Source: Candidatus Saccharimonadales bacterium
GTDB lineage: Bacteria; Patescibacteriota; Saccharimonadia; Saccharimonadales; 2-12-FULL-41-12
Assembly (NCBI GenBank): GCA_025451045.1
Contig: JANWLD010000003.1
Location: 133,690-197,689 of the forward strand
Length of the DNA stretch: 64,000 nucleotides
Direction of reading: 5' to 3'
The notes below the pieces were generated by a model. The model saw nothing but the letters and a program-made list of their open reading frames with translations, had not been told where the DNA came from and did no database searches. The first letter of the stretch is position 1, and the number at the start of each line of letters is the position of its first letter. Positions 1 to 46,579 of the stretch are shown here, piece by piece. Position numbers and translations under genes: made by a program.

Positions 1-37
1 TTTCTTTTGGAATAGCGACATTAGTGCAAGTATACCT

Positions 38-24204: not shown

Positions 24205-25074
24205 TTAAATAAGCTGGGAAAGTAGGGCGCGGAGGGTGTCGTAGTTACCGCGGTCAGAGGTGGAATGGCCGGCGACGGTCCAGAATATCTCGCTATCCGG
24301 AAGCTTCTGGTGCAAGTCGTAAGCGGCTTTCGGCGGAGTGACAAAATCATAACGTCCTTGAACAATTTTGACTGGAACATTAATCTTGGAAGCGTTATCT
24401 AAGATGTAATTTTCCGGCAAAAACACGTCGTGCTTGAAATATTCGAATTCAATCTTAAGCGGCGTGTCATCGTATTTTTCGCGGTCTAGCGGATAATATC
24501 TGTCGTCCAGCCGATAAAACTGGATAAAAGCCGAGCTGTAAGCAAAGAAATCAATCTTGTCTTTTTTCTGTTTAAGCTGGTTGTATCTTTCCCACGCATC
24601 CGGGTAGAACATACGGTACTTTCCTTCGGTCAGCCATTCAATCTCTTCTTTACTGCACAGCCAAATACCGCCAATGACCATCGATTTGATTTGTGCAGAG
24701 TGCTTAATAGCGTAGCACAGCGCCAAAGTTGAACCCCACGAAGTACCGTGCACATGCCACTTGTCGATTTTGAGCTTGCCGCGGACAAGCTCGATATCTT
24801 CAACCAGCTTCGGCGTAGTATTTTCTTTAAGCGAGCCATATGGCGTGCTGTTGCCCGACCCGCGTTGGTCTAAGAATATTACACGGTGCTTTTTTGGGTT
24901 AAAAAAGCTTTTGAACTTATCCCTGCAGCCAACGCCCGGACCGCCGTGCAGGAATAATATGGGTATTCCATCCGGGCTGCCCCACTCCTGGACATATAGC
25001 TTGTGCAAGCCATCAGCGGTCTTTATATGATGCTCGGCAATAGTAAATTCGTCTTTACTCAGGACCTCGGCCAT
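24205..25074 (-). CDS. pip: Proline iminopeptidase (alpha/beta hydrolase)
   Basis: FLHGGPGVG, DQRGSGNS and nucleophile elbow GTSWGS; start moved to MAEVLSK, which removes the overlap with the upstream gene. Confidence 0.85.
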   Translation of the reverse strand: MAEVLSKDEFTIAEHHIKTADGLHKLYVQEWGSPDGIPILFLHGGPGVGCRDKFKSFFNPKKHRVIFLDQRGSGNSTPYGSLKENTTPKLVEDIELVRGKLKIDKWHVHGTSWGSTLALCYAIKHSAQIKSMVIGGIWLCSKEEIEWLTEGKYRMFYPDAWERYNQLKQKKDKIDFFAYSSAFIQFYRLDDRYYPLDREKYDDTPLKIEFEYFKHDVFLPENYILDNASKINVPVKIVQGRYDFVTPPKAAYDLHQKLPDSEIFWTVAGHSTSDRGNYDTLRALLSQLI

Positions 25075-25081
25075 ATGTTTA

Positions 25082-26260
25082 TTATAAAGCAATACGGGTC
25101 TTGGCGGCTTGCGCCAAAGTTTCCAGCATCCGCGCGGTGGTATCCAGCCCGACACATCCGTCGGTGACGGATTGGCCATAGACTAGTTTCTTGCCGGGTT
25201 CAAGTTTTTGAGCTCCTTCTACAAGATTGCTCTCTATCATTACGCCGCAGATATCAGGACTACCTTCGCTTACCTGACGGGCGACATTTTCAAGGACGGC
25301 TTCCTGATTACGGTAATCTTTGTTGCTGTTAGCATGCGAACAATCAATCATTATCGAAGTATTAAGGCCATTAGCGCGAAGTTTGTCCGTGGTCTCTTTG
25401 ACATGGCTTTTGTCATAATTCGCTCCTTTGCTGCTGCCACGCAGGACAATATGGCAATACGGGTTGCCTTTGGTCTTGATAGAGGCTGATTTACCCTTGA
25501 GATCTATACCTGGGAAAACATGCGATTCTTTGGAGGCGGCAATAGCATCAATGGCTATCTGTACACTGCCGCCGGTGCCGTTTTTGTATCCGACAGGGAA
25601 TGATACCCCGGAAACAAGTTCGCGGTGCAACTGGCTCTCAGTGGTACGGGCACCGATTGCGCCCCATGATACCAAATCGGAGACGTATTGCGGCGTACGG
25701 GTGCTTAACAGTTCGTAAGATACCGGCAAGCCAAGTTCGGTTATGTCGGCCAGAAGTTTTCGCGAAACCCTAAACCCCTTGTTGACATGGTAACTGCCGT
25801 CAAGGTCAGGGTCGTTAATAATTCCTTTCCAGCCGACCGTAGTACGTGGTTTTTCCAGGTATGTACGCATGACGATTTCTAACGTATCAGCGTATTTATC
25901 GCGCTGGCCTTTTAAGAAACGGGCGTATTCCATAGCCGCATCAGCGTCATGGATAGAACATGGGCCAACCACTACCAATAGCCTGCTATCTTTCCGTTCC
26001 GGTCCGACTATTTTTTCTATCGCCCGGCGGCTATTTATCACTGTTTCAGCTGATTTTTCGGATTGCGGGAATTCGCCGATGACTTGCTCAGGGCTGTCCA
26101 GCGGCAATATTTGTTCAATCCTACTATCTGTAAGTATCTGCTCTCTCATACTTTTTCTCTTAATAGATTGTACCTCATCCTCACGGATATCGTAGGGGCG
26201 ATCGGCAACCAATTCCGTTTTTGGTGCTTCTCGCGGCTTGTCTTCGGTTAAAGTTTCCAT
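25082..26260 (-). CDS. aroG: 3-deoxy-7-phosphoheptulonate (DAHP) synthase, class I
   Basis: VVVGPCSIHD, KPRTTVGWKG and IDCSHANS motifs; cannot distinguish the F/G/H isozyme type. Confidence 0.9.
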   Translation of the reverse strand: METLTEDKPREAPKTELVADRPYDIREDEVQSIKRKSMREQILTDSRIEQILPLDSPEQVIGEFPQSEKSAETVINSRRAIEKIVGPERKDSRLLVVVGPCSIHDADAAMEYARFLKGQRDKYADTLEIVMRTYLEKPRTTVGWKGIINDPDLDGSYHVNKGFRVSRKLLADITELGLPVSYELLSTRTPQYVSDLVSWGAIGARTTESQLHRELVSGVSFPVGYKNGTGGSVQIAIDAIAASKESHVFPGIDLKGKSASIKTKGNPYCHIVLRGSSKGANYDKSHVKETTDKLRANGLNTSIMIDCSHANSNKDYRNQEAVLENVARQVSEGSPDICGVMIESNLVEGAQKLEPGKKLVYGQSVTDGCVGLDTTARMLETLAQAAKTRIAL

Positions 26261-26273
26261 AAATTTCTCCTTA

Positions 26274-26306
26274 TAAAATAAAAATCGCCCGCTCTTCAGC
26301 GGACGA
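26274..26306 (-). terminator. Attenuator terminator upstream of DAHP synthase
   Basis: Minus strand: UCGUCCGCU-GAAG-AGCGGGCGA (9 bp, one G.U), then AUUUUUAUUUU; SD AAGGAG and ATG follow within ~25 nt. Confidence 0.7.
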
Positions 26307-26329
26307 GGTGCTTTTTCTTAGTAGTTTAT

Positions 26330-26410
26330 TTAAAACGCAAATTGAGCACTGTCCGCGCTAAGCGGCATAAAGTAAGTGCTAAACCAATACTGTTTTAAAT
26401 ATGTTTTCAC
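26330..26410 (-). CDS. Aromatic-rich leader peptide (V/M)KTYLKQYWFSTYFMPLSADSAQFAF
   Basis: 27-codon ORF from GTG; 8 of 26 residues are Tyr/Trp/Phe; sits between a promoter-like element and the terminator in front of DAHP synthase. Confidence 0.55.
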   Translation of the reverse strand: MKTYLKQYWFSTYFMPLSADSAQFAF

Positions 26411-26417
26411 GATTACT

Positions 26418-26447
26418 ACTATACTACATTTATTTTGCTAATGCAAA
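26418..26447 (-). promoter_or_regulatory. Putative promoter of the aromatic leader
   Basis: TTTGCA (26442-26447), 18-nt spacer, TATAGT (26418-26423), 7 nt, GTG. Confidence 0.4.
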
Positions 26448-26448
26448 C

Positions 26449-26700
26449 CTATCTTTTGAATTTGCGCTTGCCCGACCCGCGAAGTCTTCTCGCGGCTCTA
26501 GTGATCATATCCAGCTCAGGACCCTGTCTTGCCGGCGGCGTTTTCTTATCTTCTTTACGCCGTCCTTTTGGTTCTTCTGAGGCTTCCGAGGCGTCAGGTT
26601 CGGTCGAATCCTTGGCAACTATATCTTCGGCTTCGCCCGTGCTGCCTCTGACTTCAATATCATCATTCCCCAGCATTTCCATATCTATATTATAGCGCAC
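26449..26700 (-). CDS. Hypothetical disordered 83-aa protein (acidic N-terminal half, basic C-terminus)
   Basis: ORF co-oriented with the M20 peptidase gene and overlapping its end by 16 nt; low complexity, so uncertain. Confidence 0.35.
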   Translation of the reverse strand: MRYNIDMEMLGNDDIEVRGSTGEAEDIVAKDSTEPDASEASEEPKGRRKEDKKTPPARQGPELDMITRAARRLRGSGKRKFKR

Positions 26701-27767
26701 TGCTCGAGATATTTACGGAGTATAGTGGTTAGCTGAATAACTCCTTCGGCGTCCACCCACTCGCTGTCAGCATGCCGCCCGCCGCCGTTAGGCTGGATAA
26801 CGACACAAGGTATATTATGGGCACAAAAATACCGCGCGTCGGTTGAGCCGACAGAATGGCTCTTGGGGATTTTCCGGCCCAGCACTGTTTCGGCAGTCCG
26901 GATAAAGTCGATTATTTCCGGTTTTTCGGTATCTACGTTTATGCACGAGAAAAGTTCGATGTTTTTACTGTCCACGCCATGTTTTAGGCATATCTTCTCC
27001 ACTTGAGCCTTGAGACTTTCATATATTTCACTGGTTTTGAACCGGATGTCTAAAACAGCTTCGGCGTGGTCGGGAATCTGGTTCATGGCTTTGCCGGAGC
27101 TGATTTTCGTAAGCGACAGTGTCAATTCTTCGTCAGAGTAGTCTTCGCGGAGTTTGTGAAGTTCGTGTATCGTTCGGGTCAAGATTTCCGCGGCGTTTAT
27201 TCCTTTGTGAGGGACAGAGCCATGGGCGTTCTTGCCGGTTTTTGAAAGTTTGACGAACCAGGCGCCGTTGCCGGTCGACTCCAAGTGCCAGTCTTTGCCG
27301 GAATCCGGCAGAATACAAACATTGGCGCCGTAGCCTTGGTTGAGCAAGGCTTCAACGCCGTTGTGGCCGCCGATTTCTTCGTCAAAACTGAGCATAATAC
27401 CAAAATCGTATTTGGAGGTGTCTTTTCCAAGGTCATTAATTAGCTTCATATAGCTAGCGCAAGCGAATTTCATATCGAAAGTACCCCGGCCTTTCAGCTT
27501 ACCGTCTTCTCTTTTCATTTTAAAAAGCTTGTCACCCGCTGGTACGACATCCATATGGCATTGAAGCATTACTTTCGGTTTTTTGGTCTTTTGAGCGGTA
27601 GCAACGACATTAGGATAACCGTCGGACTCTATTAGCTTGGTATGCAGGCCGTGAGATTTGAAAAATTCAGCGCAATGCTCAGCGCAGGCTTTTGAGGCCT
27701 TTTTATCGGCTGTAACCGAAGCAAAGGCCACCAGTTCTTCCAGATAGTCAGCTTCACTCTTCATGCC
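26685..27767 (-). CDS. M20-family metallopeptidase/deacylase (ArgE/DapE-like)
   Basis: LQCHMDVVPAGD, GRGTFDMK and SFDEEIGG metal-ligand motifs; start placed at the internal MGMKSE (track ORF extends to 27833). Confidence 0.8.
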   Translation of the reverse strand, partial: GMKSEADYLEELVAFASVTADKKASKACAEHCAEFFKSHGLHTKLIESDGYPNVVATAQKTKKPKVMLQCHMDVVPAGDKLFKMKREDGKLKGRGTFDMKFACASYMKLINDLGKDTSKYDFGIMLSFDEEIGGHNGVEALLNQGYGANVCILPDSGKDWHLESTGNGAWFVKLSKTGKNAHGSVPHKGINAAEILTRTIHELHKLREDYSDEELTLSLTKISSGKAMNQIPDHAEAVLDIRFKTSEIYESLKAQVEKICLKHGVDSKNIELFSCINVDTEKPEIIDFIRTAETVLGRKIPKSHSVGSTDARYFCAHNIPCVVIQPNGGGRHADSEWVDAEGVIQLTTILRKYLEQCAII

Positions 27768-27801
27768 CATATTATAGGCTAAATCCGGGTAAATCGCTTC
27801 C

Positions 27802-28215
27802 TTAGGCCGCTTGCTGTATTTCGACCGGCTCAACTGTTTGAGCGGTTGATGCTCTGCCCAAGTCCTTCTCTACGTCAAGTTCGGACAGCCGATCATGCAG
27901 ATTGTGCGGAAGCTCATGGACAAGCTGGACATAATTAGTAATGGGCATGCGGATAATTGGTTTGCCTTCGGCTACCTTTATCCATGCCGCGGGCTTGCCG
28001 CGTTCCTGTTTTGCTTTGGCAAAAGTGTCGTTACGCTTGGTAAGTACCGTGCTATTCGGGTCGAAAGTGCCATCTTCGTATACATAGCGTTCAACGCCGT
28101 TTTGCATGGTCGTAACCCTCATCCTTGGCCCTTCGTATGATTCCGGATAACCCAGTAATTTCTTGCCGTCAGGATAAATTTTTCTTTGCGGCGGTTTGTA
28201 CATCTTTTTGTTCAT
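27802..28215 (-). CDS. Hypothetical 137-aa protein, first gene after the Leu/Ile/Val leader
   Basis: ORF with SD AGGAG; no recognisable motif. Confidence 0.55.
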   Translation of the reverse strand: MNKKMYKPPQRKIYPDGKKLLGYPESYEGPRMRVTTMQNGVERYVYEDGTFDPNSTVLTKRNDTFAKAKQERGKPAAWIKVAEGKPIIRMPITNYVQLVHELPHNLHDRLSELDVEKDLGRASTAQTVEPVEIQQAA

Positions 28216-28235
28216 TTCTCACTCCTCTCTAAATT

Positions 28236-28264
28236 AAAAACTCCCGCTTGGTTAGCGGGAGCTC
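28236..28264 (-). terminator. Attenuator terminator (Leu/Ile/Val leader)
   Basis: Minus strand: AGCUCCCGCU-AACCA-AGCGGGAGUU, then UUUAAUUU; the structural-gene SD lies ~15 nt downstream. Confidence 0.75.
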
Positions 28265-28287
28265 ATTTTCTTAGGTTAATTACAAGC

Positions 28288-28347
28288 TTACCCGCTGGTC
28301 TCCGGGGCCACTACTACTGCGATTGCGAGTATTAATGATTTGCTCAT
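28288..28347 (-). CDS. Leader peptide MSKSLILAIAVVVAPETSG
   Basis: 20-codon ORF; 7 of 19 residues are Leu/Ile/Val, plus 4 Ala; AGCGGG-UA-AGCU around the stop codon is complementary to the terminator 5' arm. Confidence 0.65.
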   Translation of the reverse strand: MSKSLILAIAVVVAPETSG

Positions 28348-28353
28348 AATTCC

Positions 28354-28382
28354 ACCTTACGCCTCTCTGTTAATGTTGTCAA
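28354..28382 (-). promoter_or_regulatory. Putative promoter of the Leu/Ile/Val leader, with its -35 overlapping the upstream stop codon
   Basis: TTGACA (28377-28382, contains the TGA stop of the 528-aa gene), 17-nt spacer, TAAGGT (28354-28359), 6 nt, ATG. Confidence 0.4.
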
Positions 28383-29965
28383 GCAGCTTTCTTAGCTTCA
28401 GCTTTTTGGACTCGTTCTTCGGCACGGTCAATTACATTGACAGCATGCATCAAAGCCTCAACTCCAGCTCTTTCTGAAACTTTTGATTTGGCGTGGGTGT
28501 CTATTTCGTATCCGTTATGTTTGACGGTCGCGAATATTCTGACCGCAGCATCTGAACCTTCTTCCAGATCATCAACGTGCCAGCCGCCAATATCAAACTC
28601 AAAACCTACGATAAACTGCATCACCTGCTTTGCGGCATCTACTACGCCGCCTTCTGATTTGACAGTCTTTTTCTGTCCGTTGATGGTGAGGGTTGCCTCG
28701 CAAATCCCCTCTGTGTCTCCGCTGAAAGAGAAAGTCTCAAGATTGAACTTGTCTTCCATCTTCTCCCCGGTCACTCCGCTAGCAAGTTTTTCGAGGTCAT
28801 TGTGGCCGAGATTTCTGTCTTCATTTGTTGAGAGGTCTTTAACAGCTTCCGTTACCCTCAATAGTTCATCGTCACCCACATTTACATTTAGTCTGGAAAG
28901 TTCGTATCGGACCCCGGCTTTGCCGCTTTGGTCATTTATCTTGAACTCAAAAGGCTTATCAAAACCGAATGTCGAAGAAGGAAAGTTCTTAAAGGTTCCC
29001 TCGTCTTTGATTACGCCGTCCTGATGCATGCCGGAACCGTGCACATAGCTTTTGCGGCCAATGAACGGTTGAGTTTCTGCAACACGTACGCCAAGTGCCC
29101 GCGGCGCTACGCTATGGGTCAGATTACGCAATTTCAACGGGTCGACATTTGTCCTAAGACCCAGTTCTGGCTGGACGGCTATATTACCGACCACCAGTTC
29201 TAAAGGAGTGTTGCCATTGCGCTCACCGACTCCGCCGATTGTTACCTCAACCTGTTCGGCACCGCCGAAACGCAAGGCATCCACGCTATTCATTACCGAT
29301 TGCCCCAAGTCATTGTGGCAATGGGCTGCGATGACTACATCTTTAAAGCCCTGGCTGTCCAGTTCTTCACGTACTGCCAATAGTCTTTCGGAGTATTCTC
29401 TTGGCAACATAGCCCCTACGGTATCAGGAAGCATCATAGTTGTTGCACCAGTGTTGGCTACGGCAAGAACCGTTTTTTTCAAAAACTCCAAGTCAGCCCT
29501 TGTTGAATCTTCAAACGAGAATTCTACGTCATGCGTATGTTCCTTCGCCTGTTTGGTTGATTTAACTGCGAGTTCAAGCAGGCTTTTTCTGCCCATGCCG
29601 AGACGTTCTTTTATGTGCAAATCACTGACCGGCGCGCAAACGTTAATCCGAGCCCTATCACCGGCCGGTTCCAACGCCCGGCCGGCTTGTTCTATATCTT
29701 CAGGCAGTGTTCGAGCAAAAGCGGCTATGATAGGACCGTTTACTTTATCTGCGATATTTCGAACGGTTGCAAAATTGCCGCGGCTGGATCCGGGAAAACC
29801 GGCTTCAATCACATCCGTACCGGCTTCCGCCAAGCTTTCGGCAATGTATAAGGCGTTTTCCTTATTGGCGCTTGCATCGGGTGATTGGACTCCGTCGCGA
29901 AGCGTGGTATCAAAAATTATCACATTGGTTGGTTCTTTAAGTTGTTCTCCGCCTTGCTCTCTCAT
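28379..29965 (-). CDS. LeuA/CimA-family 2-alkylmalate synthase, 528 aa (citramalate synthase inferred from its Ile leader)
   Basis: FDTTLRDGVQS, HCHNDLG, and a C-terminal LeuA-dimer-type regulatory domain. Confidence 0.88.
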   Translation of the reverse strand: MREQGGEQLKEPTNVIIFDTTLRDGVQSPDASANKENALYIAESLAEAGTDVIEAGFPGSSRGNFATVRNIADKVNGPIIAAFARTLPEDIEQAGRALEPAGDRARINVCAPVSDLHIKERLGMGRKSLLELAVKSTKQAKEHTHDVEFSFEDSTRADLEFLKKTVLAVANTGATTMMLPDTVGAMLPREYSERLLAVREELDSQGFKDVVIAAHCHNDLGQSVMNSVDALRFGGAEQVEVTIGGVGERNGNTPLELVVGNIAVQPELGLRTNVDPLKLRNLTHSVAPRALGVRVAETQPFIGRKSYVHGSGMHQDGVIKDEGTFKNFPSSTFGFDKPFEFKINDQSGKAGVRYELSRLNVNVGDDELLRVTEAVKDLSTNEDRNLGHNDLEKLASGVTGEKMEDKFNLETFSFSGDTEGICEATLTINGQKKTVKSEGGVVDAAKQVMQFIVGFEFDIGGWHVDDLEEGSDAAVRIFATVKHNGYEIDTHAKSKVSERAGVEALMHAVNVIDRAEERVQKAEAKKAA

Positions 29966-29982
29966 TCTTCTCCTTATAAATT

Positions 29983-30007
29983 AAAAACTCCCGCTTTCGC
30001 GGGAGCT
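29983..30007 (-). terminator. Attenuator terminator (Ile leader)
   Basis: Minus strand: AAGCUCCCGC-GAAA-GCGGGAGUUU, then UUAAUUU; SD AAGGAGA and ATG follow directly. Confidence 0.78.
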
Positions 30008-30032
30008 TAGCTTTCAAAAACAAAAAGTAAAC

Positions 30033-30086
30033 TTACCCGCGTGCCTCCGGGATAATAATTATTGTGTCAATAATCTGTTTACTCAT
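30033..30086 (-). CDS. Ile-rich leader peptide MSKQIIDTIIIIPEARG
   Basis: 18-codon ORF; 6 of 17 residues are Ile, including a run of four; CGCGGG-UA-AGUU around the stop codon is complementary to the terminator 5' arm. Confidence 0.7.
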   Translation of the reverse strand: MSKQIIDTIIIIPEARG

Positions 30087-30094
30087 CGTCTGAG

Positions 30095-30123
30095 ATTGTA
30101 TAACCTTGAGAATTAGTTGTCAA
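30095..30123 (-). promoter_or_regulatory. Putative promoter of the Ile leader
   Basis: TTGACA (30118-30123), 17-nt spacer, TACAAT (30095-30100), 8 nt, ATG. Confidence 0.55.
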
Positions 30124-30130
30124 CTTTTGG

Positions 30131-31981
30131 TTATTTATAATATGAACTTTGGAACATCTTTGTCATGGATCTTTTATGTATTTCTCTTTGGTGGCGCCAT
30201 TCAGCCCTTTTTATAAGGTTAACTGCTTTGATATAGGCGTGGATGGTGGCGTTGTTCAGGCTGGTGCCTTCGCTGTATGCAGTTACGGTCACGCCTTTAT
30301 AAGCCACCTTGACTATAGCTCCTGCTTCAGAATCGGAGCCGCTATGAAGGGCAAAAGGTTTCGCATCTTCAATATCCCCGCTAAAGTCAAGTATCTTACC
30401 GATGGCGATTCTGGCGGCATCTACTTCCCCCTTGTTGCTCGTGGCTTTTTCTGTTCGTCTCTTGCCGTCTATATTTAAAGTTATTTTGGCATAGTCATCA
30501 TTTTCCTTCCCGTGGGATTTTGCGTGCAGTTCACTATCTGTCATTTTTATAGCGTCGTCCTGCCCGTGGAATAACTGTTCAAGCGCGAAGGCCTCGATTT
30601 CTAGATCGGTTATGGGCTGTTTCCTTGTTTTTGAAACGGTGTTGGAGTTGATAACTATTTGTTCTATATCAAGCTTAGCTACATCAAAGGCTAGATCGGT
30701 TAATCTTTTCACGGTTTCTTCCGAATTAATTACCAATTCTGACTTGTAGATGTCCGTACCGCCAAGATTGGCCCGACCAGCTTTACCTTGGTACTTCCCA
30801 TCTTCCAATATAGCCGCGACGGGATGTCCGAAGCCTCGGTTGTCTACAGCGGCGTAGGTCGCGGCCCCTCCTTTATTAATAGCATCCGAATGAACGCCCG
30901 AGCGGTGAACTATAGTATGGAAACCGGTGACGGGGGTATCGGGGTCAAGCTCCAATCCGGCGGCGTCTAATAGGCCTTCTGCTACGGCTTTCAACTTGGT
31001 TGTATCCACCGTAATTACTACGGGCGCGGCAAACTCATCCCGATCGGTCAGAACGTTGCGTACATAAGGCGCTAAATACATATTGCCGTTGCGTTCGCCT
31101 TTGCCGGGAGCGCTGACTGACTCCACTTGAAAGTCCGGTATAGCTGAACTTCTTGCTAACGCGGCGTTTATTACCGCATGCATTGAAGATATGGTGTTTT
31201 GAACGGCTCTCTGGCCATCATCGTGGTTGTGGCTCGATATCGTAATCTCTTCCACCCTGCCTTCGTCAATCATCCAGTTTGTCGCGGCGTCGAATATTTT
31301 GGCCATGCGGATAGGACTGGCAGCTCCTAGAGTGTCGGGCAGGTTAATTACATTTATATCTTCCTGCAGTGCGGTTCTGACTGCTCTTTCTAAGAAGACC
31401 ATATCAGTTGTAGAAGCTGCTTCGCAGGAAAACTCTACCGTACCATCAGGTCCTATTGCATCTCGGGCTCTGCGTATACTGTCCACGCCCATTTCAAGTA
31501 CTTCTTCCCTGGTCATGGCAGGGTGTTTTGCGCGCATGTGTTCTTCGGCGGTGGCGATAAATACATGTATTCCGGGTCTGTCAGCTTCTTCTACGGCTCT
31601 GGCTGCTTGCTCAATTCCTGCCGGATTAGCCAGAGTAAGTCCGGTAATGACAGGCGTCCAGATTTTTGGCGGCAAGTCTACCCAGTTACCATTTTCAATA
31701 GACTTCGGTAATATCTGGTACTGGGTTTGCCCGACTGTTCTGGCTACTTCAGCTATTTCTTCTTCATCGCCCATACTGGCTGGAAAGCCAGCTTCGATTA
31801 CGTCTACTCCCTGGCTTACTATCAACTCCGCCAGCTCGACTTTTGAGCCTTCAGGGAATTGATTCTCCTGAGGCAAAGACTGCGCCCCGTCGCGTAGCGT
31901 AGTGTCGAATATCTCTATTTTCATTGCCGCCGGATCAAATTCCGGTTTAGAAGGCAGTGTTTCTACTTGGCTTTGTATCAT
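30131..31981 (-). CDS. LeuA-family 2-isopropylmalate synthase-like enzyme, 616 aa
   Basis: FDTTLRDGAQS, SSHNHDDG (HxH) and a C-terminal LeuA-dimer-type domain; preceded by a Leu-rich leader. Confidence 0.85.
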   Translation of the reverse strand: MIQSQVETLPSKPEFDPAAMKIEIFDTTLRDGAQSLPQENQFPEGSKVELAELIVSQGVDVIEAGFPASMGDEEEIAEVARTVGQTQYQILPKSIENGNWVDLPPKIWTPVITGLTLANPAGIEQAARAVEEADRPGIHVFIATAEEHMRAKHPAMTREEVLEMGVDSIRRARDAIGPDGTVEFSCEAASTTDMVFLERAVRTALQEDINVINLPDTLGAASPIRMAKIFDAATNWMIDEGRVEEITISSHNHDDGQRAVQNTISSMHAVINAALARSSAIPDFQVESVSAPGKGERNGNMYLAPYVRNVLTDRDEFAAPVVITVDTTKLKAVAEGLLDAAGLELDPDTPVTGFHTIVHRSGVHSDAINKGGAATYAAVDNRGFGHPVAAILEDGKYQGKAGRANLGGTDIYKSELVINSEETVKRLTDLAFDVAKLDIEQIVINSNTVSKTRKQPITDLEIEAFALEQLFHGQDDAIKMTDSELHAKSHGKENDDYAKITLNIDGKRRTEKATSNKGEVDAARIAIGKILDFSGDIEDAKPFALHSGSDSEAGAIVKVAYKGVTVTAYSEGTSLNNATIHAYIKAVNLIKRAEWRHQREIHKRSMTKMFQSSYYK

Positions 31982-31993
31982 TTTTTCTCCATT

Positions 31994-32024
31994 AAATTAA
32001 AAATAGGCTTCTTGGTTGAAGCCT
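31994..32024 (-). terminator. Attenuator terminator (Leu leader)
   Basis: Minus strand: AGGCUUC-AACCAA-GAAGCCU, then AUUUUUAAUUU; SD GGAGA lies ~15 nt downstream. Confidence 0.7.
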
Positions 32025-32063
32025 GATGCTTTGGGCTGTACTGTGGCTCCGATACCCTCGGAA

Positions 32064-32141
32064 CTAGGCTTCAACCATGCTGAAGCACAGCCCTTTAAGG
32101 CTGAGTAGGAGGTCCAAGTGCTTCGCTATGTATGAAACCAT
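32064..32141 (-). CDS. Leu-rich leader peptide MVSYIAKHLDLLLSLKGLCFSMVEA
   Basis: 26-codon ORF; 6 Leu, clustered as LDLLLSLKGL; its last codons GGUUGAAGCCU(AG) are an 11-nt perfect complement of the terminator 5' arm plus loop. Confidence 0.72.
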   Translation of the reverse strand: MVSYIAKHLDLLLSLKGLCFSMVEA

Positions 32142-32150
32142 ATCAAAATA

Positions 32151-32179
32151 ACGATAACCCGCTTTAGGTCTTTTGTCAA
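32151..32179 (-). promoter_or_regulatory. Putative promoter of the Leu leader
   Basis: TTGACA (32174-32179), 17-nt spacer, TATCGT (32151-32156), 9 nt, ATG. Confidence 0.5.
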
Positions 32180-32180
32180 A

Positions 32181-32273
32181 CCCCGTAGTGAGCTTTCGTG
32201 ACTCTCTCGGCCAAGTGGCCGGGAAACTTTAGCCGCCCCTTTGGGCGGCTAAACTCGAAAGTCTACTACAGGG
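32181..32273 (-). mobile_element. Palindromic insertion element, copy A
   Basis: Minus strand reads CCCTGTAGTAGAC...GCTCACTACGGGG, flanked by 5-bp direct repeat TCAAA (32176-32180, 32274-32278). Inner stem TTTCG/CGAAA; the interior carries the hairpin TTTAGCCGCCC-AAAG-GGGCGGCTAAA (32228-32253). Confidence 0.55.
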
Positions 32274-32987
32274 TCAAACCAGTTTGTATTCACCGTCTGA
32301 TTCTTCAAGATGATAAACTTGGCTTTTGCGCTCAATGATTATCGGCCACTTTTTGGCTTTTGCATGTTCAAGCAGGGTTTTGTTAGGGTTGAAGGCTATG
32401 GGTTTCTCAACCAGTTCCAACATTGGTATATCACCCTCGGTATCGCCGACTCCTATGCTTCCTTCCAGCGACAAACCTTTCGCGTCAATAATTTTTTGCA
32501 AGGTCTTGCCCTTCGCCCCTGCCGGGAAGCTGGCATAGCCGCCGAATTTATCGCCAGACTTTTTGTATTTGGTACCGGTCCATTCGTCAAAACCGTAATA
32601 TTTGGAAACTTTTTCAACTATTTCGTACTGCGAGCCGGAAATCGCTATCAGATAGTATCCTTTGTCTTTCAGCTCAGCTACCAAGTCGCGCGTGTAGGTA
32701 TAGACTTGGTCTTTATATTTTGCGAATACTTTGTCGACTGCTTTAGAAAATACGGATATATTCAGCTGGCTTACGTGCTTGTCGAATATCTCAATCGATT
32801 TATTCGCGTAGTTCTCGTAGGCTTTTTCCGAGCTGCGGGCTTTCCAGGAATCAAACAGGTTATGTACTTCCCGGTAATCTTCATTATCTATCAGTCCTTC
32901 GATTGCCAGTTCATAGAAAACGGCCATGAAAAGCTGCCAGCGGATAAGCGTTCCGTCAAAATCAAACACCGCAAACCTTTTGCTCAT
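32274..32987 (-). CDS. HAD-IB family hydrolase (phosphoserine phosphatase-like)
   Basis: FDFDGTL motif I, S/T motif II region, and GVGDTEGDIPML motif IV. Confidence 0.78.
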   Translation of the reverse strand: MSKRFAVFDFDGTLIRWQLFMAVFYELAIEGLIDNEDYREVHNLFDSWKARSSEKAYENYANKSIEIFDKHVSQLNISVFSKAVDKVFAKYKDQVYTYTRDLVAELKDKGYYLIAISGSQYEIVEKVSKYYGFDEWTGTKYKKSGDKFGGYASFPAGAKGKTLQKIIDAKGLSLEGSIGVGDTEGDIPMLELVEKPIAFNPNKTLLEHAKAKKWPIIIERKSQVYHLEESDGEYKLV

Positions 32988-33781
32988 AGGACTAACTCTA
33001 TGCTTACCGGGCAGTGGTCGGAGCCCATGACGTCGGCGTGGATTTCAGCCAATTTGACCTTGTCTTTTAACGAGTCGGAAACCAGGAAATAATCAATCCG
33101 CCAGCCGACGTTGCGTGCTCGGGCATTAGCCCAATGCGTCCACCAGGTGTAATGGCCGTTGCCACTAGTAAACATTCTAAAAGTATCAACAAAACCGGCG
33201 TCTAAAAAGTTCTGGAAGCCTTCGCGCTCCTCGTCGGTAAAGCCCTTTTTGCCGATGTTCGGTTTTGGCCGTGCCAGGTCTTCCTCTGTATGTGCAACAT
33301 TTAGATCCCCACAAAAAATAACCGGTTTTTTCTGTTCCAACTCTTTGCAATAGGCCAAAAAGGCCGGATCCCACTGCTTGTGGCGCAGAGGTACGCGGGA
33401 TAAATCATCCTTGGCGTTCGGAGTATAGACAGTAACGACATAGAATTTATCGAATTCGGCGGCGATTACCCTGCCTTCTTTGCTCGGGTCGCCGTAATTG
33501 TCGGCTACCAAGCCGTATTTATTGGCGATATGTACGGGTAATCCGTTGATAACGGCTTTGGGCTTTATCTTAGTAAAAATCGCAGTGCCGGAGTAGCCCT
33601 TTTTTTCGGCAGAGTTCCAGTATTCTTCATAGTCTGGCAAATCTACTTCCGATTGTCCCTGTTGGGCCTTGGTTTCCTGCAGACACAGAATATCCGGTTT
33701 ATGTTTTTCGGCAAACGGCATAAATAACTTCTTATTATGGACGGCTCTTATACCATTCACATTCCAGCTATATATTTTCAT
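32984..33781 (-). CDS. xth: Exodeoxyribonuclease III
   Basis: MKIYSWNVNGIRA, LQETK, and SDHCPV at the C-terminus. Confidence 0.92.
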   Translation of the reverse strand: MKIYSWNVNGIRAVHNKKLFMPFAEKHKPDILCLQETKAQQGQSEVDLPDYEEYWNSAEKKGYSGTAIFTKIKPKAVINGLPVHIANKYGLVADNYGDPSKEGRVIAAEFDKFYVVTVYTPNAKDDLSRVPLRHKQWDPAFLAYCKELEQKKPVIFCGDLNVAHTEEDLARPKPNIGKKGFTDEEREGFQNFLDAGFVDTFRMFTSGNGHYTWWTHWANARARNVGWRIDYFLVSDSLKDKVKLAEIHADVMGSDHCPVSIELVL

Positions 33782-44439: not shown

Positions 44440-45468
44440 ATGACTGACAAGACTTCCGACTACAAAATTGCGACTCTTGGGAGCCATTCCGCGCTTCAGA
44501 TACTAAAAGGCGCGCGCGACGAAGGCTTTAAAACAATGATAATCGCCCTCAAGGGACGGACTCAGCCGTATGAGTCTTTCAAAGTTGCCGATGAGATAAT
44601 TGAGCTGGAATCATTCAAGGACCTCCCCGGTTTGGAACAGCGGCTGATTGATGAGAATGTGATTTTAGTACCGCACGGCTCATTTTTTAGCGCCTATACC
44701 GATTTGGAGGCATTAAACCAATCCGACGCGCTTTACTTCGGTAATAAAAAGATTTTGCCATGGGAACAAAGCCGGACTAAACAGCGTGAATGGCTGAAAA
44801 AAGCCGGACTGACCCTGCCGAAGATTTATGATAAGCCCGAAGATATCGACGGCCCTTGCATCATCAAGTTTTATGGTGCTGGCGGCGGCAAAGGATACTT
44901 TTTGGCCAAGACCGCCGAAGAGTTTTATGAAAAAATCAAACCTCATAAAGACAAGAGATACATAATCCAGCAATACATCGTCGGAGCGCCGCTGTATGTA
45001 CATTACTTCTACTCGCCGCTAACAGGCGAGCTCGAAGTGATGAGCATGGACAAGCGTTACGAGACCAACGTCGATTCCATCGGGCGTATAAGCGCCAAAG
45101 ACCAACTGGATTTGAATATCGAAAGCTCTTACAACATCATGGGCAACCTGCCGGTGGTAGTACGCGAATCGATGTTGCCGCAGATATTTTCTATGGGTGA
45201 AGAGGTCGTTAAGGTTTCCAAGAAACTGGAGCCGGGCGGACTCACCGGACCGTTTTGCCTGGAAACAATAGTCACGCCGGAACTGGAATTTTATGTATTT
45301 GAAATTTCCGCCCGCATCGTCGCGGGGACTAATCCGTACATCAACGGCTCGCCCTATACTGATCTTCGTTACAAAGAACCAATGAGTACCGGTCGCCGCG
45401 TAGCACGAGAGATAAAGCTAGCATTAGAAAGTGATGAAATAGAAAAGGTTTTGATAAATGGCAATTGA
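44440..45468 (+). CDS. purP: Archaeal-type 5-formaminoimidazole-4-carboxamide ribonucleotide (FAICAR) synthetase, PurP family
   Basis: IATLGSHSALQILKGARDEGFKT N-terminal signature, then an ATP-grasp region. Confidence 0.78.
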   Translation: MTDKTSDYKIATLGSHSALQILKGARDEGFKTMIIALKGRTQPYESFKVADEIIELESFKDLPGLEQRLIDENVILVPHGSFFSAYTDLEALNQSDALYFGNKKILPWEQSRTKQREWLKKAGLTLPKIYDKPEDIDGPCIIKFYGAGGGKGYFLAKTAEEFYEKIKPHKDKRYIIQQYIVGAPLYVHYFYSPLTGELEVMSMDKRYETNVDSIGRISAKDQLDLNIESSYNIMGNLPVVVRESMLPQIFSMGEEVVKVSKKLEPGGLTGPFCLETIVTPELEFYVFEISARIVAGTNPYINGSPYTDLRYKEPMSTGRRVAREIKLALESDEIEKVLINGN

Positions 45469-46579
45469 CAGCAGCAAACTACTAGACGGTTATGACTTGA
45501 ATAACATTCGCATTGCTACGCTCGGCGGACATAGCGCGCTGGACGTATGCCGCGGCGCGAAGAGCGAAGGGTTCGAAACGGTCGTTGTAGCCCAAAAAGA
45601 CCGCGCCAAGACTTTTACCGATTATTACAAAACCCGCGGTAACAAAGGCTGTGTCGACCATGTCATCTTGGTAGATGATTTCGCGGACGTAGCCAAGCCG
45701 GAAATCCAGAAACAACTACGCGAATTAAACGCGGTATTCGTACATAGCCGTTACTTTTGGGTTTACTGCGATATCAACCAGATTGAAAATGATTTTAACG
45801 TGCCGATTATCGGCAACCGGGTGCTGGTGCGCAAAGAAGAGCGCGACGAAGAAAAAAACCAGTACTTCCTACTCAAAGAAGCCGGTATAAATATCCCGAA
45901 ACAGTTTGCTGATCCAAAAGACATTGACCGTCAGGTTATCGTCAAGGCTGCCGAAGCGAACCGTAAGTATGAGCGGGCCTTTTTCTTGGTGCATAGCTAT
46001 GAAGACTATCTGGCCGAGTCCAAGAAACGTTTGGACAGCGGCGCTATAGATAAGCAGTCTTTAGACAATGCGATTATCGAAGAATTTGTTCTTGGTCCGC
46101 AATTGAACTTGAATTTCTTTTATTCGCCAGTTACGGATGAGCTGGAGCTACTGGGAACTGACACTCGCCGCCAGACTAATATAGATGGTCTCTTGCGCCT
46201 GACCGCAACTGAGCAGACTGAAGTATTGAAGCACGTCCGGCCGCAATATATCGAGAACGGACATATAGCCGTCACTATAAAAGAATCTTTGCTGGAAAAG
46301 GCATATGAAGCCGGCGAGAAGTTTGTTGAGTCGGTTGCCAAGCATTATCCGCCCGGTATGATTGGCCCGTTTGCCCTCCAAGGCGCGATTACCCCCGGCC
46401 CGCCAAAAGAAAAATTGTTTGTTTTTGACGTGAGCATGCGCATTCCCGGCAGTCCCGGTACAATGTTTACGCCCTACTCCGGCTATATGTACGGTGAAAA
46501 TATGAGCGTTGGCAAGCGCCTGGCCATGGAAGTCAAACAAGCCATAGCCGAAAATAAATTAGATCTATTAATTACTTAA
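45458..46579 (+). CDS. PurP-family paralog (second ATP-grasp formate-dependent ligase-like gene)
   Basis: IATLGGHSALDVCRGAKSEGFET; overlaps the first purP by 11 nt. Confidence 0.72.
   Translation: MAIDSSKLLDGYDLNNIRIATLGGHSALDVCRGAKSEGFETVVVAQKDRAKTFTDYYKTRGNKGCVDHVILVDDFADVAKPEIQKQLRELNAVFVHSRYFWVYCDINQIENDFNVPIIGNRVLVRKEERDEEKNQYFLLKEAGINIPKQFADPKDIDRQVIVKAAEANRKYERAFFLVHSYEDYLAESKKRLDSGAIDKQSLDNAIIEEFVLGPQLNLNFFYSPVTDELELLGTDTRRQTNIDGLLRLTATEQTEVLKHVRPQYIENGHIAVTIKESLLEKAYEAGEKFVESVAKHYPPGMIGPFALQGAITPGPPKEKLFVFDVSMRIPGSPGTMFTPYSGYMYGENMSVGKRLAMEVKQAIAENKLDLLIT

What the first reader, a model, noticed from the sequence alone, without database searches (positions are those of the whole stretch)
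26685..28215. Unknown 137-aa protein and an M20 peptidase are the cargo of a branched-chain amino-acid attenuator
Leader-peptide attenuators normally control biosynthetic operons. Here the Leu/Ile/Val leader is followed by an uncharacterised 137-aa protein and an ArgE/DapE-like M20 metallopeptidase/deacylase, possibly with an 83-aa disordered ORF as well. That suggests a starvation-induced salvage function: releasing branched-chain amino acids from peptides or N-acyl amino acids. It also gives a functional context to the unknown 137-aa family.
Basis: inference. Interest (0 to 1): 0.55.

Follow-up and report, generated by a model that had tools for sequence, protein, structure and literature searches.

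The report
Valine/leucine attenuator controlling an orphan small protein
In this Saccharimonadales (candidate phyla radiation) genome a real, conserved leader-peptide switch sensing valine, leucine and isoleucine sits in front of a fast-evolving 137-residue protein of unknown function, while the neighbouring M20 peptidase is a faithful neighbour that appears to have its own promoter.

Summary
On the minus strand there is a 19-codon leader (MSKSLILAIAVVVAPETSG, 28347-28288), an intrinsic terminator (28264-28238), a Shine-Dalgarno (SD)-led 137-aa ORF (28215-27802) and an M20 gene.

The leader belongs to one attenuator family with 27 distinct copies in related Saccharimonadales loci. A covariance model gives about 39 hits. 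No Rfam family reaches its threshold.

The last leader codons are always NGC GGG stop. That GCGGG copies the terminator's 3' arm and can pair with its 5' arm, forming an antiterminator. A ribosome at the stop codon would mask it.

The 137-aa ORF is coding and belongs to a 16-member orphan family. Members are poor in Leu/Ile/Val, mostly disordered by AlphaFold, and nearly all end in -Ala-Ala.

The M20 claim is only partly supported. M20 follows such leaders in about 12 loci and is not a canonical ArgE or DapE. However, it lacks an SD, and in all 9 distinct loci aligned at the M20 N-terminus it starts 6-9 nt after a -10 hexamer, the leaderless layout. In distant relatives it lies upstream of the attenuator. 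Its true start is 27764.

The salvage function is untested. The window holds four amino-acid-specific attenuators in a row.

The parts
28354..28382 (-). Promoter of the leader transcript: TTGACA (28382-28377), 17-nt spacer, TAAGGT (28359-28354), then 6 nt to the leader ATG. The leader mRNA is therefore leaderless or nearly so, with no SD. The TGA stop of the upstream LeuA-like gene lies inside the -35 box.
   Evidence: Sequence. TTGACA is invariant, and TTGACA-17-TAnnnT-6..12-ATG recurs in about 20 copies.
28288..28347 (-). Leader ORF, 19 codons plus TAA: MSKSLILAIAVVVAPETSG. The regulatory run is codons 5-13 (28335-28309): 2 Leu, 2 Ile, 3 Val.
   Evidence: Orthologous leaders include MSKSLVLSVVVVIPETSG (L005), MSRSLVLSVVVVIPEVSG (L003), MSKSLVLNVAVIIPDSSG (L004), MSKQLVLVAVVLPPSG (L001) and MSKLSVLSVVVVLPNPSG (L023).
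28303..28306 (-). Region 1: CCCG in the Ala-Pro codons. It can pair with CGGG at 28294-28291 to form a local hairpin (-6.7 kcal/mol) that sequesters region 2.
   Evidence: The helix is 88.8% paired over 23 sequences.
28285..28296 (-). Region 2: AGCGGG-UA-AGCU, made of the last two sense codons, the stop codon and 3 nt beyond. It duplicates the terminator's 3' arm and pairs with region 3 as an antiterminator (-14.6 kcal/mol).
   Evidence: GCGGG is invariant in 23 of 23 aligned copies while the encoded residue varies (S/R/C/G), which indicates RNA-level selection. The antiterminator is 96.6% paired.
28238..28264 (-). Intrinsic terminator. The 5' arm GAGCUCCCGCU (28264-28254) is region 3 and the 3' arm AGCGGGAGUUU (28248-28238) is region 4. 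The U-tract runs to about 28233. Hairpin energy is -17.7 kcal/mol.
   Evidence: The helix is 99.5% paired over 23 copies, with one compensatory U-A to C-G change in L004 and L018.
28222..28226 (-). Shine-Dalgarno AGGAG, 6 nt before the ATG of the 137-aa ORF.
   Evidence: Every first ORF after these terminators has a strong SD.
27802..28215 (-). orf137, the direct cargo. It belongs to an orphan 'small A' family with a core like KRYVYxDGTxDxxSxV. It is poor in Leu/Ile/Val, mostly predicted disordered, and ends in -QQAA.
   Evidence: 16 members. Codon-position differences are 35/31/75. pLDDT is 47-51. There is no Pfam, NCBIfam or PDB match.
27771..27776 (-). TATAAT hexamer 6 nt upstream of the M20 ATG, the predicted -10 of an M20-specific leaderless transcript. 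There is no SD.
26685..27764 (-). M20 metallohydrolase, 359 aa from the ATG at 27764. Metal-ligand motifs are intact (HMDVV, GRGTFDMK, FDEEIGG, ILPDSG, GRHADSEW). The closest solved structure is the uncharacterised 2rb7.
26449..26682 (-). Small acidic/basic, low-complexity ORF ('small C', 77 aa from the ATG at 26682). It is preceded by a TATAAT (26694-26689) formed by the M20 C-terminal codons ...A-I-I-stop.
   Evidence: Positional homologues occur in L004, L005, L007, L022 and L023, but at only 19-31% identity.

Best explanation
The locus is a ribosome-mediated (leader-peptide) transcription attenuator of the ilv/ivb type, in a Candidatus Saccharimonadales genome.

How it most likely works:
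1. A TTGACA-17-TAAGGT promoter makes an mRNA that begins at or next to the leader AUG.
2. A ribosome translates MSKSLILAIAVVVAPETSG.
3. If charged Leu, Ile and Val tRNAs are plentiful, the ribosome reaches the UAA. This stop directly follows GCGGG, so the ribosome covers region 2. The terminator (CUCCCGCU/AGCGGGAG plus U-tract) forms and transcription stops at about 28233.
4. If the ribosome stalls in the L-I-L-A-I-A-V-V-V run, it covers the upstream CCCG but leaves AGCGGG-UA-AGCU free. That segment pairs with the terminator's 5' arm as an antiterminator, and RNA polymerase reads on.

Cargo: the translated cargo is the SD-led 137-aa ORF. It is a rapidly evolving, branched-chain-poor, largely disordered protein with a C-terminal Ala-Ala tail. 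My best guess is that it is a short-lived starvation-induced regulator or adaptor, possibly degraded through an ssrA-like C-terminal tag.

M20 and the small ORF after it are each preceded by their own TATAAT 6 nt before the ATG and lack an SD. They are therefore primarily independent leaderless transcription units. No terminator separates them from orf137, so read-through can add M20-containing transcript under starvation. Whether that longer RNA is translated at the M20 AUG is unknown.

Shown here: the sequence elements, their conservation, alternative pairings, the coding signature and synteny. Inferred: the switching mechanism, leaderless transcription, the role of the small protein and any salvage role of M20.
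For: - Leader, terminator and SD are present. The fold z-score is -4.9.
- There are 27 distinct copies of the same element, in two classes (Ile-run and Val/Leu-run), all with TTGACA-17-(-10)-short spacer-ATG. Model R1 finds about 39 hits with E < 1e-4 and exactly two in the window.
- The terminator is 99.5% paired with one compensatory pair. The antiterminator is 96.6% paired.
- Leader C-termini are always NGC GGG stop although the amino acid varies.
- Energies are -17.7 (terminator), -14.6 (antiterminator) and -6.7 kcal/mol (region 1:2 hairpin). Masking a ribosome footprint at Leu5 to Val13 leaves the antiterminator. Masking at the stop abolishes it.
- orf137 is coding: third-position differences are about twice those at positions 1 and 2. 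It has homologues behind the same leader.
- Leu+Ile+Val content is 0.15-0.21 in the family against 0.237 +/- 0.042 for window proteins.
- 14 of 16 family members end in -AA, against 2 of 58 window proteins.
- A -10 hexamer lies 6-9 nt before the M20 ATG in all 9 distinct loci, with no SD.
- 9 of 49 TATAAT hexamers precede a long-ORF start by 5-9 nt, against 3.1% for permuted hexamers. The other such promoters also lack a -35 box.
- In L024 and L025 the M20 gene is upstream of the attenuator. In L025 it has TATAAT-8-ATG behind a divergently oriented gene.
Against: - There are no expression data; everything is comparative and thermodynamic.
- Covariation is thin because the helices are almost invariant. 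Only one compensatory pair was seen, and for the antiterminator the shuffle control is uninformative (238 of 500 shuffles reach the observed value).
- The region 1:2 hairpin is weak. The unmasked nascent RNA already prefers the antiterminator. Termination would then depend wholly on a ribosome sitting on the stop codon, which is a departure from the classical trp scheme and is unproven.
- M20 is downstream of such leaders in about 12 of 15 informative loci with no intervening terminator, so it may after all be regulated cargo.
- An A/T-rich hexamer before an internal AUG could also aid translation rather than act as a promoter.
- The proposed degron and regulator role of the small protein have no direct support, and structure prediction failed (pLDDT 47-51).
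Confidence: 0.62

Rival explanations
1. orf137, M20 and perhaps the 83-aa ORF form one attenuator-controlled operon. Under Leu/Ile/Val starvation, M20 releases these amino acids from peptides or N-acyl amino acids (salvage).
For: - No terminator is predicted between 28238 and 26306 on the minus strand.
- Small ORF plus M20 follows the Val/Leu leader in the window, L003, L004, L005, L013, L015, L019, L020, L022 and L023. L006 and L010 have leader-(small ORF)-ridA-ilvA-M20.
- M20 is not a canonical ArgE or DapE.
- A prolyl aminopeptidase is also in the island.
- Saccharibacteria are generally described as amino-acid auxotrophs (my own knowledge).
Against: - M20 lacks an SD although all genes directly behind the terminators have strong ones.
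- A conserved -10 hexamer lies at leaderless distance in every lineage, even where M20 follows ilvA by 12 nt.
- M20 lies upstream of the attenuator in L024 and L025.
- L001 has the small ORF followed by the aminopeptidase, not M20.
- There is no evidence on substrate.
Confidence: 0.25
2. The small ORF has no protein function of its own. It is a translated spacer whose translation keeps the read-through transcript protected or coupled, for example against Rho, so that downstream genes (M20, ridA-ilvA) are expressed. The real cargo is whatever follows.
For: - The ORF at this position diverges extremely fast. In L005, L013, L023 and L010 it is replaced by sequences with no detectable similarity.
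- AlphaFold finds almost no confident structure.
- In L010, L014 and L018 the small ORF abuts ridA as if translationally coupled.
Against: - The codon-position pattern indicates purifying selection on the protein.
- A 16-member family has an invariant G..VY.DG core and a conserved -AA C-terminus.
- The size range of 90-190 aa is maintained.
Confidence: 0.1
3. The 'leader' is a chance short ORF. The hairpin is merely the terminator of the upstream LeuA-like gene.
For: - The terminator does lie 115 nt after the stop of the 528-aa gene, and would also end its transcript.
- The only Rfam leader match is sub-threshold (Trp_leader, E = 1.2).
Against: - The same promoter, ORF with a hydrophobic-codon run, NGC-GGG-stop and terminator recur in 27 distinct copies. 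These include loci with a different upstream gene or none on that strand.
- Codon runs match the cargo: Ile runs precede CimA/IlvA-like genes, and Leu and aromatic leaders precede LeuA and DAHP synthase.
Confidence: 0.03

Closest known systems
E. coli / Salmonella ilvGMEDA (ilvL) and ilvBN (ivbL) leader-peptide attenuators
   Same: A short leader ORF with a mixed Leu/Ile/Val (or Val/Leu) codon run. An intrinsic terminator lies just before the first structural gene. An antiterminator shares the terminator's 5' arm. Sensing is multivalent, through ribosome stalling (established textbook mechanism; my own knowledge).
   Different: - No sequence or Rfam relationship.
- The leader is translated from a leaderless or near-leaderless mRNA.
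- The design is more compact. The stop codon abuts region 2, so the terminating ribosome itself appears to act as the anti-antiterminator, and the 1:2 hairpin is weak.
- The cargo is an orphan small protein rather than acetohydroxyacid synthase or an ilv operon.
Leader-peptide attenuators of Gram-positive and actinobacterial ilv-leu genes (e.g. the leucine-rich attenuator peptide of Staphylococcus aureus ilv-leu, PMC5794164; Corynebacterium ilvB/leuA leaders, my own knowledge)
   Same: Leader peptides with branched-chain codon runs outside the Proteobacteria. In actinobacteria, short or absent 5' UTRs before the leader ORF.
   Different: - A different phylum (Patescibacteria / candidate phyla radiation).
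- The leader family is conserved at the nucleotide level: MSK start, P-x-x-[SR]-G end, GCGGG/CCCGC core.
- It is deployed in multiple paralogous copies per genome, in front of isolated first-step enzymes and small orphan ORFs.
M20 family ArgE/DapE deacylases; structural-genomics protein 2rb7
   Same: The Peptidase_M20 catalytic and dimerisation domains are both present, and the metal-binding and catalytic motifs are conserved.
   Different: - It scores well below all ArgE, DapE, PepT, PepV and aminoacylase equivalog cut-offs.
- The third metal-ligand position is Asp (ILPDSG), as in 2rb7, rather than the Glu of DapE.
- The clade is essentially restricted to Saccharibacteria/Patescibacteria in the search.
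- The substrate is unknown.

Membership tests
Ribosome-mediated (leader-peptide) transcription attenuator | A short upstream ORF containing a run of codons for the regulating amino acid(s). | tested here: met
   The 19-codon ORF has L-I-L-A-I-A-V-V-V at codons 5-13. Orthologues keep a Val/Leu/Ile run.
Ribosome-mediated (leader-peptide) transcription attenuator | A Rho-independent terminator between the leader ORF and the first structural gene. | tested here: met
   11-bp G+C-rich stem plus U-tract at 28264-28233, -17.7 kcal/mol. 99.5% paired in 23 copies.
Ribosome-mediated (leader-peptide) transcription attenuator | A mutually exclusive antiterminator that uses the terminator's 5' arm. Its upstream strand is exposed by a ribosome stalled in the run and hidden by a ribosome that completes the leader. 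| tested here: met
   AGCGGG-UA-AGCU pairs with AGCUCCCGCU (-14.6 kcal/mol) and is 96.6% paired in 23 copies. Footprint masking at codons 5-13 keeps it, and masking at the stop removes it. This is computational only, and covariation is weak.
Ribosome-mediated (leader-peptide) transcription attenuator | Read-through increases when the cognate aminoacyl-tRNA is limiting. | not testable with these tools
   Needs expression experiments.
Curated Rfam leader families (Leu_leader, Trp_leader, Thr_leader, His_leader, Phe_leader and others) | A covariance-model score at or above the family's gathering threshold. | tested here: not met
   There are no leader hits at gathering thresholds. The best is Trp_leader at 20.7 bits against a cut-off of 41, E = 1.2.
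M20 metallopeptidase/deacylase family | Peptidase_M20 catalytic domain plus M20 dimerisation domain, with the metal ligands present. | tested here: met
   PF01546 at 80.3 bits and PF07687 at 71.3 bits. The H, D, EE, D and H motifs are aligned to solved M20 enzymes.
ArgE (acetylornithine deacetylase) or DapE (succinyl-diaminopimelate desuccinylase) equivalogs | A score above the NCBIfam equivalog cut-off. | tested here: not met
   PRK13009 127.7 against 284. TIGR01246 109.9 against 361.8. TIGR01892 94 against 297.7. The TIGR01910 subfamily model gives 149.8 against 217.6.
Leaderless (5'-UTR-less) gene architecture, applied to M20, orf83 and the leader ORF itself | A -10 hexamer about 6-9 nt upstream of the start codon and no Shine-Dalgarno sequence. 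| tested here: met
   TATAAT-6-ATG for M20 and orf83. The layout is conserved in 9 distinct loci. It is about six-fold enriched in the window.
Leaderless (5'-UTR-less) gene architecture, applied to M20, orf83 and the leader ORF itself | A mapped primary transcript 5' end at the start codon. | not testable with these tools
   Needs dRNA-seq or Cappable-seq.
ssrA-like C-terminal degron (for orf137) | A C-terminal ...Ala-Ala-COOH that is recognised by ClpXP. | tested here: inconclusive
   -AA is present in 14 of 16 family members and in unrelated small ORFs at the same position, against 2 of 58 window proteins. Proteolysis was not tested.

The most novel reading that the evidence does not exclude
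Saccharimonadales, obligate epibionts usually regarded as amino-acid auxotrophs, carry a lineage-wide regulon of paralogous, leaderless leader-peptide attenuators. Each is tuned to Leu, Ile, Val/Leu/Ile or aromatic amino acids. They switch on two kinds of gene: isolated feedback-type first-step enzymes (LeuA/CimA-like, IlvA, DAHP synthase) and families of fast-evolving, short-lived small proteins such as orf137. In this reading the small proteins are the real starvation output: signalling or effector proteins that adjust the epibiont or its host when a specific amino acid runs short. The M20 and prolyl peptidases would be constitutively expressed helpers.
Probability: 0.25. Interest if true: 0.8.

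Novelty: new variant of a known kind. Interest (0 to 1): 0.6.

Why it matters
Leader-peptide attenuation is a classic mechanism. I found no description of it in Saccharibacteria or the candidate phyla radiation (literature searches), and no Rfam family covers these elements.

Here a single, easily recognisable attenuator family is reused many times per genome. Its codon runs match the cargo, which gives a direct read-out of which amino acids these uncultivated epibionts monitor.

It also shows that they regulate isolated first-step biosynthetic enzymes. That is puzzling for presumed auxotrophs.

The direct cargo of the Val/Leu/Ile copy is an orphan small protein family with a possible degradation tag. 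This gives the family a regulatory context (induced by branched-chain limitation) and makes its function testable.

It also corrects annotation: the M20 start, the leaderless gene starts and the unannotated leader ORFs.

Tried and rejected
- Function of orf137 by homology. There was no hit in Pfam, NCBIfam or the PDB profile search. An HMM search of 1.84 billion representatives added only P0003 plus three weak multi-stretch hits that I regard as spurious.
- Structure prediction of orf137. It was run twice, with 3 and then 16 sequences, giving pLDDT 47 and 51. No fold search was run because the result would be meaningless.
- Protein-pattern scans for orf137 relatives in genome contigs and metagenome contigs found nothing. 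The family was instead extended through the DNA pattern of the attenuator and a profile search.
- A long-range helix between the 5' end of the leader ORF and the sequence after its stop (P1). It is strong in L006, L010, L014 and L018 (-12 to -14.7 kcal/mol). In the window copy it is only -5.5 kcal/mol, no better than shuffles (mean -4.6, sd 2.4). Cognate and non-cognate partners barely differ (-7.6 against -6.8). I do not rely on it.
- Classical 1:2 anti-antiterminator logic. The CCCG/CGGG hairpin is too weak to beat the antiterminator in the unmasked nascent RNA. I therefore favour ribosome occupancy of the stop codon as the termination-promoting state.
- LysW/LysK-type amino-group carrier pathway (LeuA-like homocitrate synthase plus ArgE-like M20). 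I considered it and dropped it, because none of the other pathway genes is in the window.
- Canonical DapE or ArgE. Rejected on HMM cut-offs.
- Literature searches for attenuation or leaderless promoters in Saccharibacteria/Patescibacteria returned nothing relevant.
Full report
**What is there.** All relevant genes lie on the minus strand. Reading 5' to 3':
- a HAD hydrolase (32987-32274);
- a 616-aa LeuA-like gene (31981-30131);
- a 528-aa LeuA/CimA-like gene (29965-28379);
- a 163-nt spacer;
- the 137-aa ORF (28215-27802);
- the M20 ORF (maximal 27833-26685);
- an 83-aa ORF (26700-26449);
- DAHP synthase (26260-25082);
- a prolyl aminopeptidase (25179-24205).

The spacer contains ATG AGC AAA TCA TTA ATA CTC GCA ATC GCA GTA GTA GTG GCC CCG GAG ACC AGC GGG TAA, which encodes MSKSLILAIAVVVAPETSG (28347-28288). 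It is followed by GAGCTCCCGCT-AACCA-AGCGGGAGTTTTT (28264-28233) and an AGGAG Shine-Dalgarno (SD) sequence 6 nt before the 137-aa ORF. The RNA folds much better than shuffles (z = -4.9).

**Organism.** The closest M20 relatives in species-representative genomes are Candidatus Saccharimonadales metagenome-assembled genomes (65%, 63% and 57% identity) and one labelled Parcubacteria (53%). The window's gene content fits a small Patescibacteria genome.

**The attenuator is a conserved family.**
- The 137-aa protein has only two close relatives in 5.8 billion proteins. Both carry the same leader and terminator upstream: MSKQLVLVAVVLPPSG in L001 and MSRSLVLSVVVVIPEVSG in L003.
- The M20-anchored loci L004 and L005 also have it (MSKSLVLNVAVIIPDSSG and MSKSLVLSVVVVIPETSG).
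- A DNA-pattern scan of metagenomes and further contexts brought the total to 27 distinct copies. A covariance model built from 23 of them gives about 39 hits with E < 1e-4 in 222 kb. Exactly two are in the window, at 28347-28230 and 30086-29977.
- All copies share TTGACA-17-(TAnnnT)-6..12 nt-ATG, usually an MSK start, a hydrophobic codon run, a Pro codon, and the ending NGC GGG TAA/TAG. The leader ORF has no SD and starts about 7 nt after the -10 box, so it is probably translated from a leaderless mRNA.
- No Rfam family reaches threshold. Only chance-level Trp_leader matches (E = 1.2) fall on the terminators.

**Mechanism inferred from the anatomy.**
- The terminator helix is 99.5% paired across 23 copies, with one compensatory U-A to C-G change.
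- The last two leader codons always spell GCGGG although the encoded residue varies (Ser, Arg, Cys, Gly). This is an RNA-level constraint. GCGGG duplicates the core of the terminator's 3' arm.
- Together with UA-AGCU, it pairs with the 5' arm AGCUCCCGC. This pairing is 96.6% paired across copies and has -14.6 kcal/mol, against -17.7 for the terminator.
- Masking a ribosome footprint at Leu5, Ile9, Val11 or Val13 leaves this antiterminator as the fold of the nascent RNA. Masking at the stop codon removes it and leaves only the terminator.
- A local CCCG/CGGG hairpin (-6.7 kcal/mol, 89% paired) could hold region 2 transiently. It is too weak to win on its own.
- I therefore favour a compact scheme. 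A ribosome that finishes the leader sits on GCGGG-UAA and permits termination. A ribosome stalled in the Leu/Ile/Val run frees region 2 and causes read-through. This is inference, and covariation support is thin because the helices hardly vary.

**The 137-aa ORF is the direct cargo.**
- It is coding. Differences from its two homologues fall 35/31/75, 45/41/79 and 48/49/98 at codon positions 1/2/3.
- A profile search enlarged the family to 16 proteins. They share a core of GRPVIIDxxGxKRYVYxDGTIDxGSxVSPEVExRAFEIG. The window protein belongs to a divergent subgroup with an insertion.
- Members have no Pfam, NCBIfam or PDB relatives. AlphaFold confidence is low (pLDDT 47-51), with only a beta-hairpin around RVTTMQNGVERYVY reaching about 60-70.
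- They are poor in Leu+Ile+Val (0.15-0.21 against 0.237 +/- 0.042).
- 14 of 16 end in -Ala-Ala, as do unrelated small ORFs in the same position in L005, L013 and L023. Only 2 of 58 window proteins do. That tail resembles the ssrA-type C-terminal degron. This is a lead from memory and was not tested.
- The slot behind the terminator is always an SD-led ORF of about 90-190 aa, but its sequence turns over quickly. L004 keeps only RYVYxxGTxDxxSTV. L005 has nothing recognisable except a shared C-terminal YGLxGxxLDEFxAG...AA module, seen via L023.

**M20 is a faithful neighbour with probably its own promoter.**

- Small ORF plus M20 follows the Val/Leu leader in about 10 loci.
- L006 and L010 have leader-(small ORF)-ridA-ilvA-M20.
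- No terminator intervenes.
- M20 is not a canonical ArgE or DapE.

Against it:
- M20 has no SD.
- In all 9 distinct loci aligned at the M20 N-terminus, the ATG lies 6-9 nt after TATAAT, TAATAT or TACAAT, even when M20 follows ilvA by 12 nt.
- This is the standard start of independent genes in this genome. 9 of 49 TATAAT hexamers precede a long-ORF start by 5-9 nt, against 3.1% for permuted hexamers. These include M20, orf83 and the aminopeptidase, and they too lack -35 boxes.
- In contrast, every gene directly behind an attenuator has a strong SD.
- In more distant relatives (41-44% identity) M20 is upstream of the attenuator. In L025 it has TATAAT-8-ATG next to a divergently oriented gene.
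- In L001 the small ORF is followed by the aminopeptidase.

The comparison also fixes the M20 start at 27764.

My reading is that M20 has a basal leaderless transcript. Starvation-induced read-through may add longer transcripts whose translation at the M20 AUG is uncertain. The salvage idea remains plausible but untested.

**Context.** The window carries four leader-peptide attenuators in series:
- a Leu leader (MVSYIAKHLDLLLSLKGLCFSMVEA, 32141-64) before the 616-aa LeuA-like gene, conserved in five loci;
- an Ile leader (MSKQIIDTIIIIPEARG, 30086-33) before the 528-aa LeuA/CimA-like gene;
- the Val/Leu/Ile leader discussed here;
- an aromatic leader (MKTYLKQYWFSTYFMPLSADSAQFAF, 26410-26330) before DAHP synthase, with xWFYNYF conserved in six loci.

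Across loci, Ile-run leaders precede CimA-like, HMGL-like or IlvA-like genes, often via a second family of small ORFs. The island xth-HAD-LeuA-...-small ORF-M20-small ORF-DAHP synthase-aminopeptidase is conserved, including on an 896-kb contig. The ORFs I scanned with Pfam, covering roughly the first 47 kb of the window, include no other branched-chain or aromatic pathway gene. The ORFs from about 46.6 to 63.2 kb were not scanned.

**Verdict.** This is a real, conserved, previously uncurated attenuator family in a candidate-phyla-radiation lineage. The direct cargo of this copy is an orphan small protein. M20 is linked by synteny but is probably not dependent on the switch. It is a new variant of a known kind and is moderately interesting.

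Noticed in passing
window 32141-32005 (minus): A leucine leader peptide, MVSYIAKHLDLLLSLKGLCFSMVEA, plus a terminator (32024-32005) lie upstream of the 616-aa LeuA-like gene, behind a TTGACA-17-TATCGT promoter (32179-32151). The leader (..LLLSLKGLCF.VVEA) and terminator are conserved in L004, L012, L016 and L023. This is a different RNA family from the Ile and Val leaders.
   Followed up: partly
window 30123-29977 (minus): An isoleucine leader, MSKQIIDTIIIIPEARG, with an 11/12 consensus promoter and a terminator lies before the 528-aa LeuA/CimA-like gene. It is a paralogue of the leader in the finding. The Ile-specific control suggests that the 528-aa enzyme is a citramalate synthase rather than an isopropylmalate synthase.
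   Followed up: partly
window 26447-26285 (minus): An aromatic leader, MKTYLKQYWFSTYFMPLSADSAQFAF (GTG start 7 nt after TATAGT), plus a terminator lie before DAHP synthase. The xWFYNYF core is conserved in L005, L006, L007, L022 and L023.
   Followed up: partly
window 1-47000 (the part scanned), with the island at 24205-33781: The LeuA-like (two copies) and DAHP synthase genes appear as isolated first-step enzymes. In relatives the same is true of IlvA/RidA. No leuBCD, ilvBCDE or aro genes were seen among the ORFs scanned, which is odd for a lineage regarded as auxotrophic. Completeness of the pathways elsewhere in the genome was not checked.
   Followed up: no
window-wide, e.g. 1370, 2043, 5073, 23022, 25086, 26694, 27776, 53719: Many genes start 5-9 nt after a TATAAT-like hexamer with no SD and no -35 box. 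This implies widespread leaderless transcripts. Genes inside operons or behind attenuators use strong SD sequences instead.
   Followed up: partly
L004 3275-3709; L009 3383-3883; L018 1059-1496; L019 3239-3739; L022 2752-3258: A second orphan small-protein family ('small B', 144-168 aa, motif like LLAGLWxxGF) follows Ile-type leaders. In L019 and L022 its C-terminus (...EIIPGGADG-stop) runs directly into a GCGGG plus terminator module, as if a full-length ORF had taken over the leader role.
   Followed up: no
window 26449-26682 (minus); L004, L005, L007, L022, L023: A low-complexity acidic-then-basic small ORF always follows M20. Its TATAAT is built from the conserved M20 C-terminal codons Ala-Ile-Ile-stop. 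Identity between loci is only 19-31%.
   Followed up: partly
window 28379-28382: The TGA stop of the 528-aa LeuA-like gene is embedded in the TTGACA -35 box of the next leader's promoter. The Val-leader terminator would therefore also end the upstream transcript.
   Followed up: no
L014 894-1455; L018 899-1608; L009 3268-4003: Some loci carry two attenuators of this family in tandem, separated only by a small ORF of 90-170 aa.
   Followed up: no
window 44440-46579: Two adjacent paralogous genes carry DUF1246 plus DUF1297 (the PurP-like ATP-grasp family, mostly archaeal as far as I recall). This is unusual in a bacterial genome.
   Followed up: no
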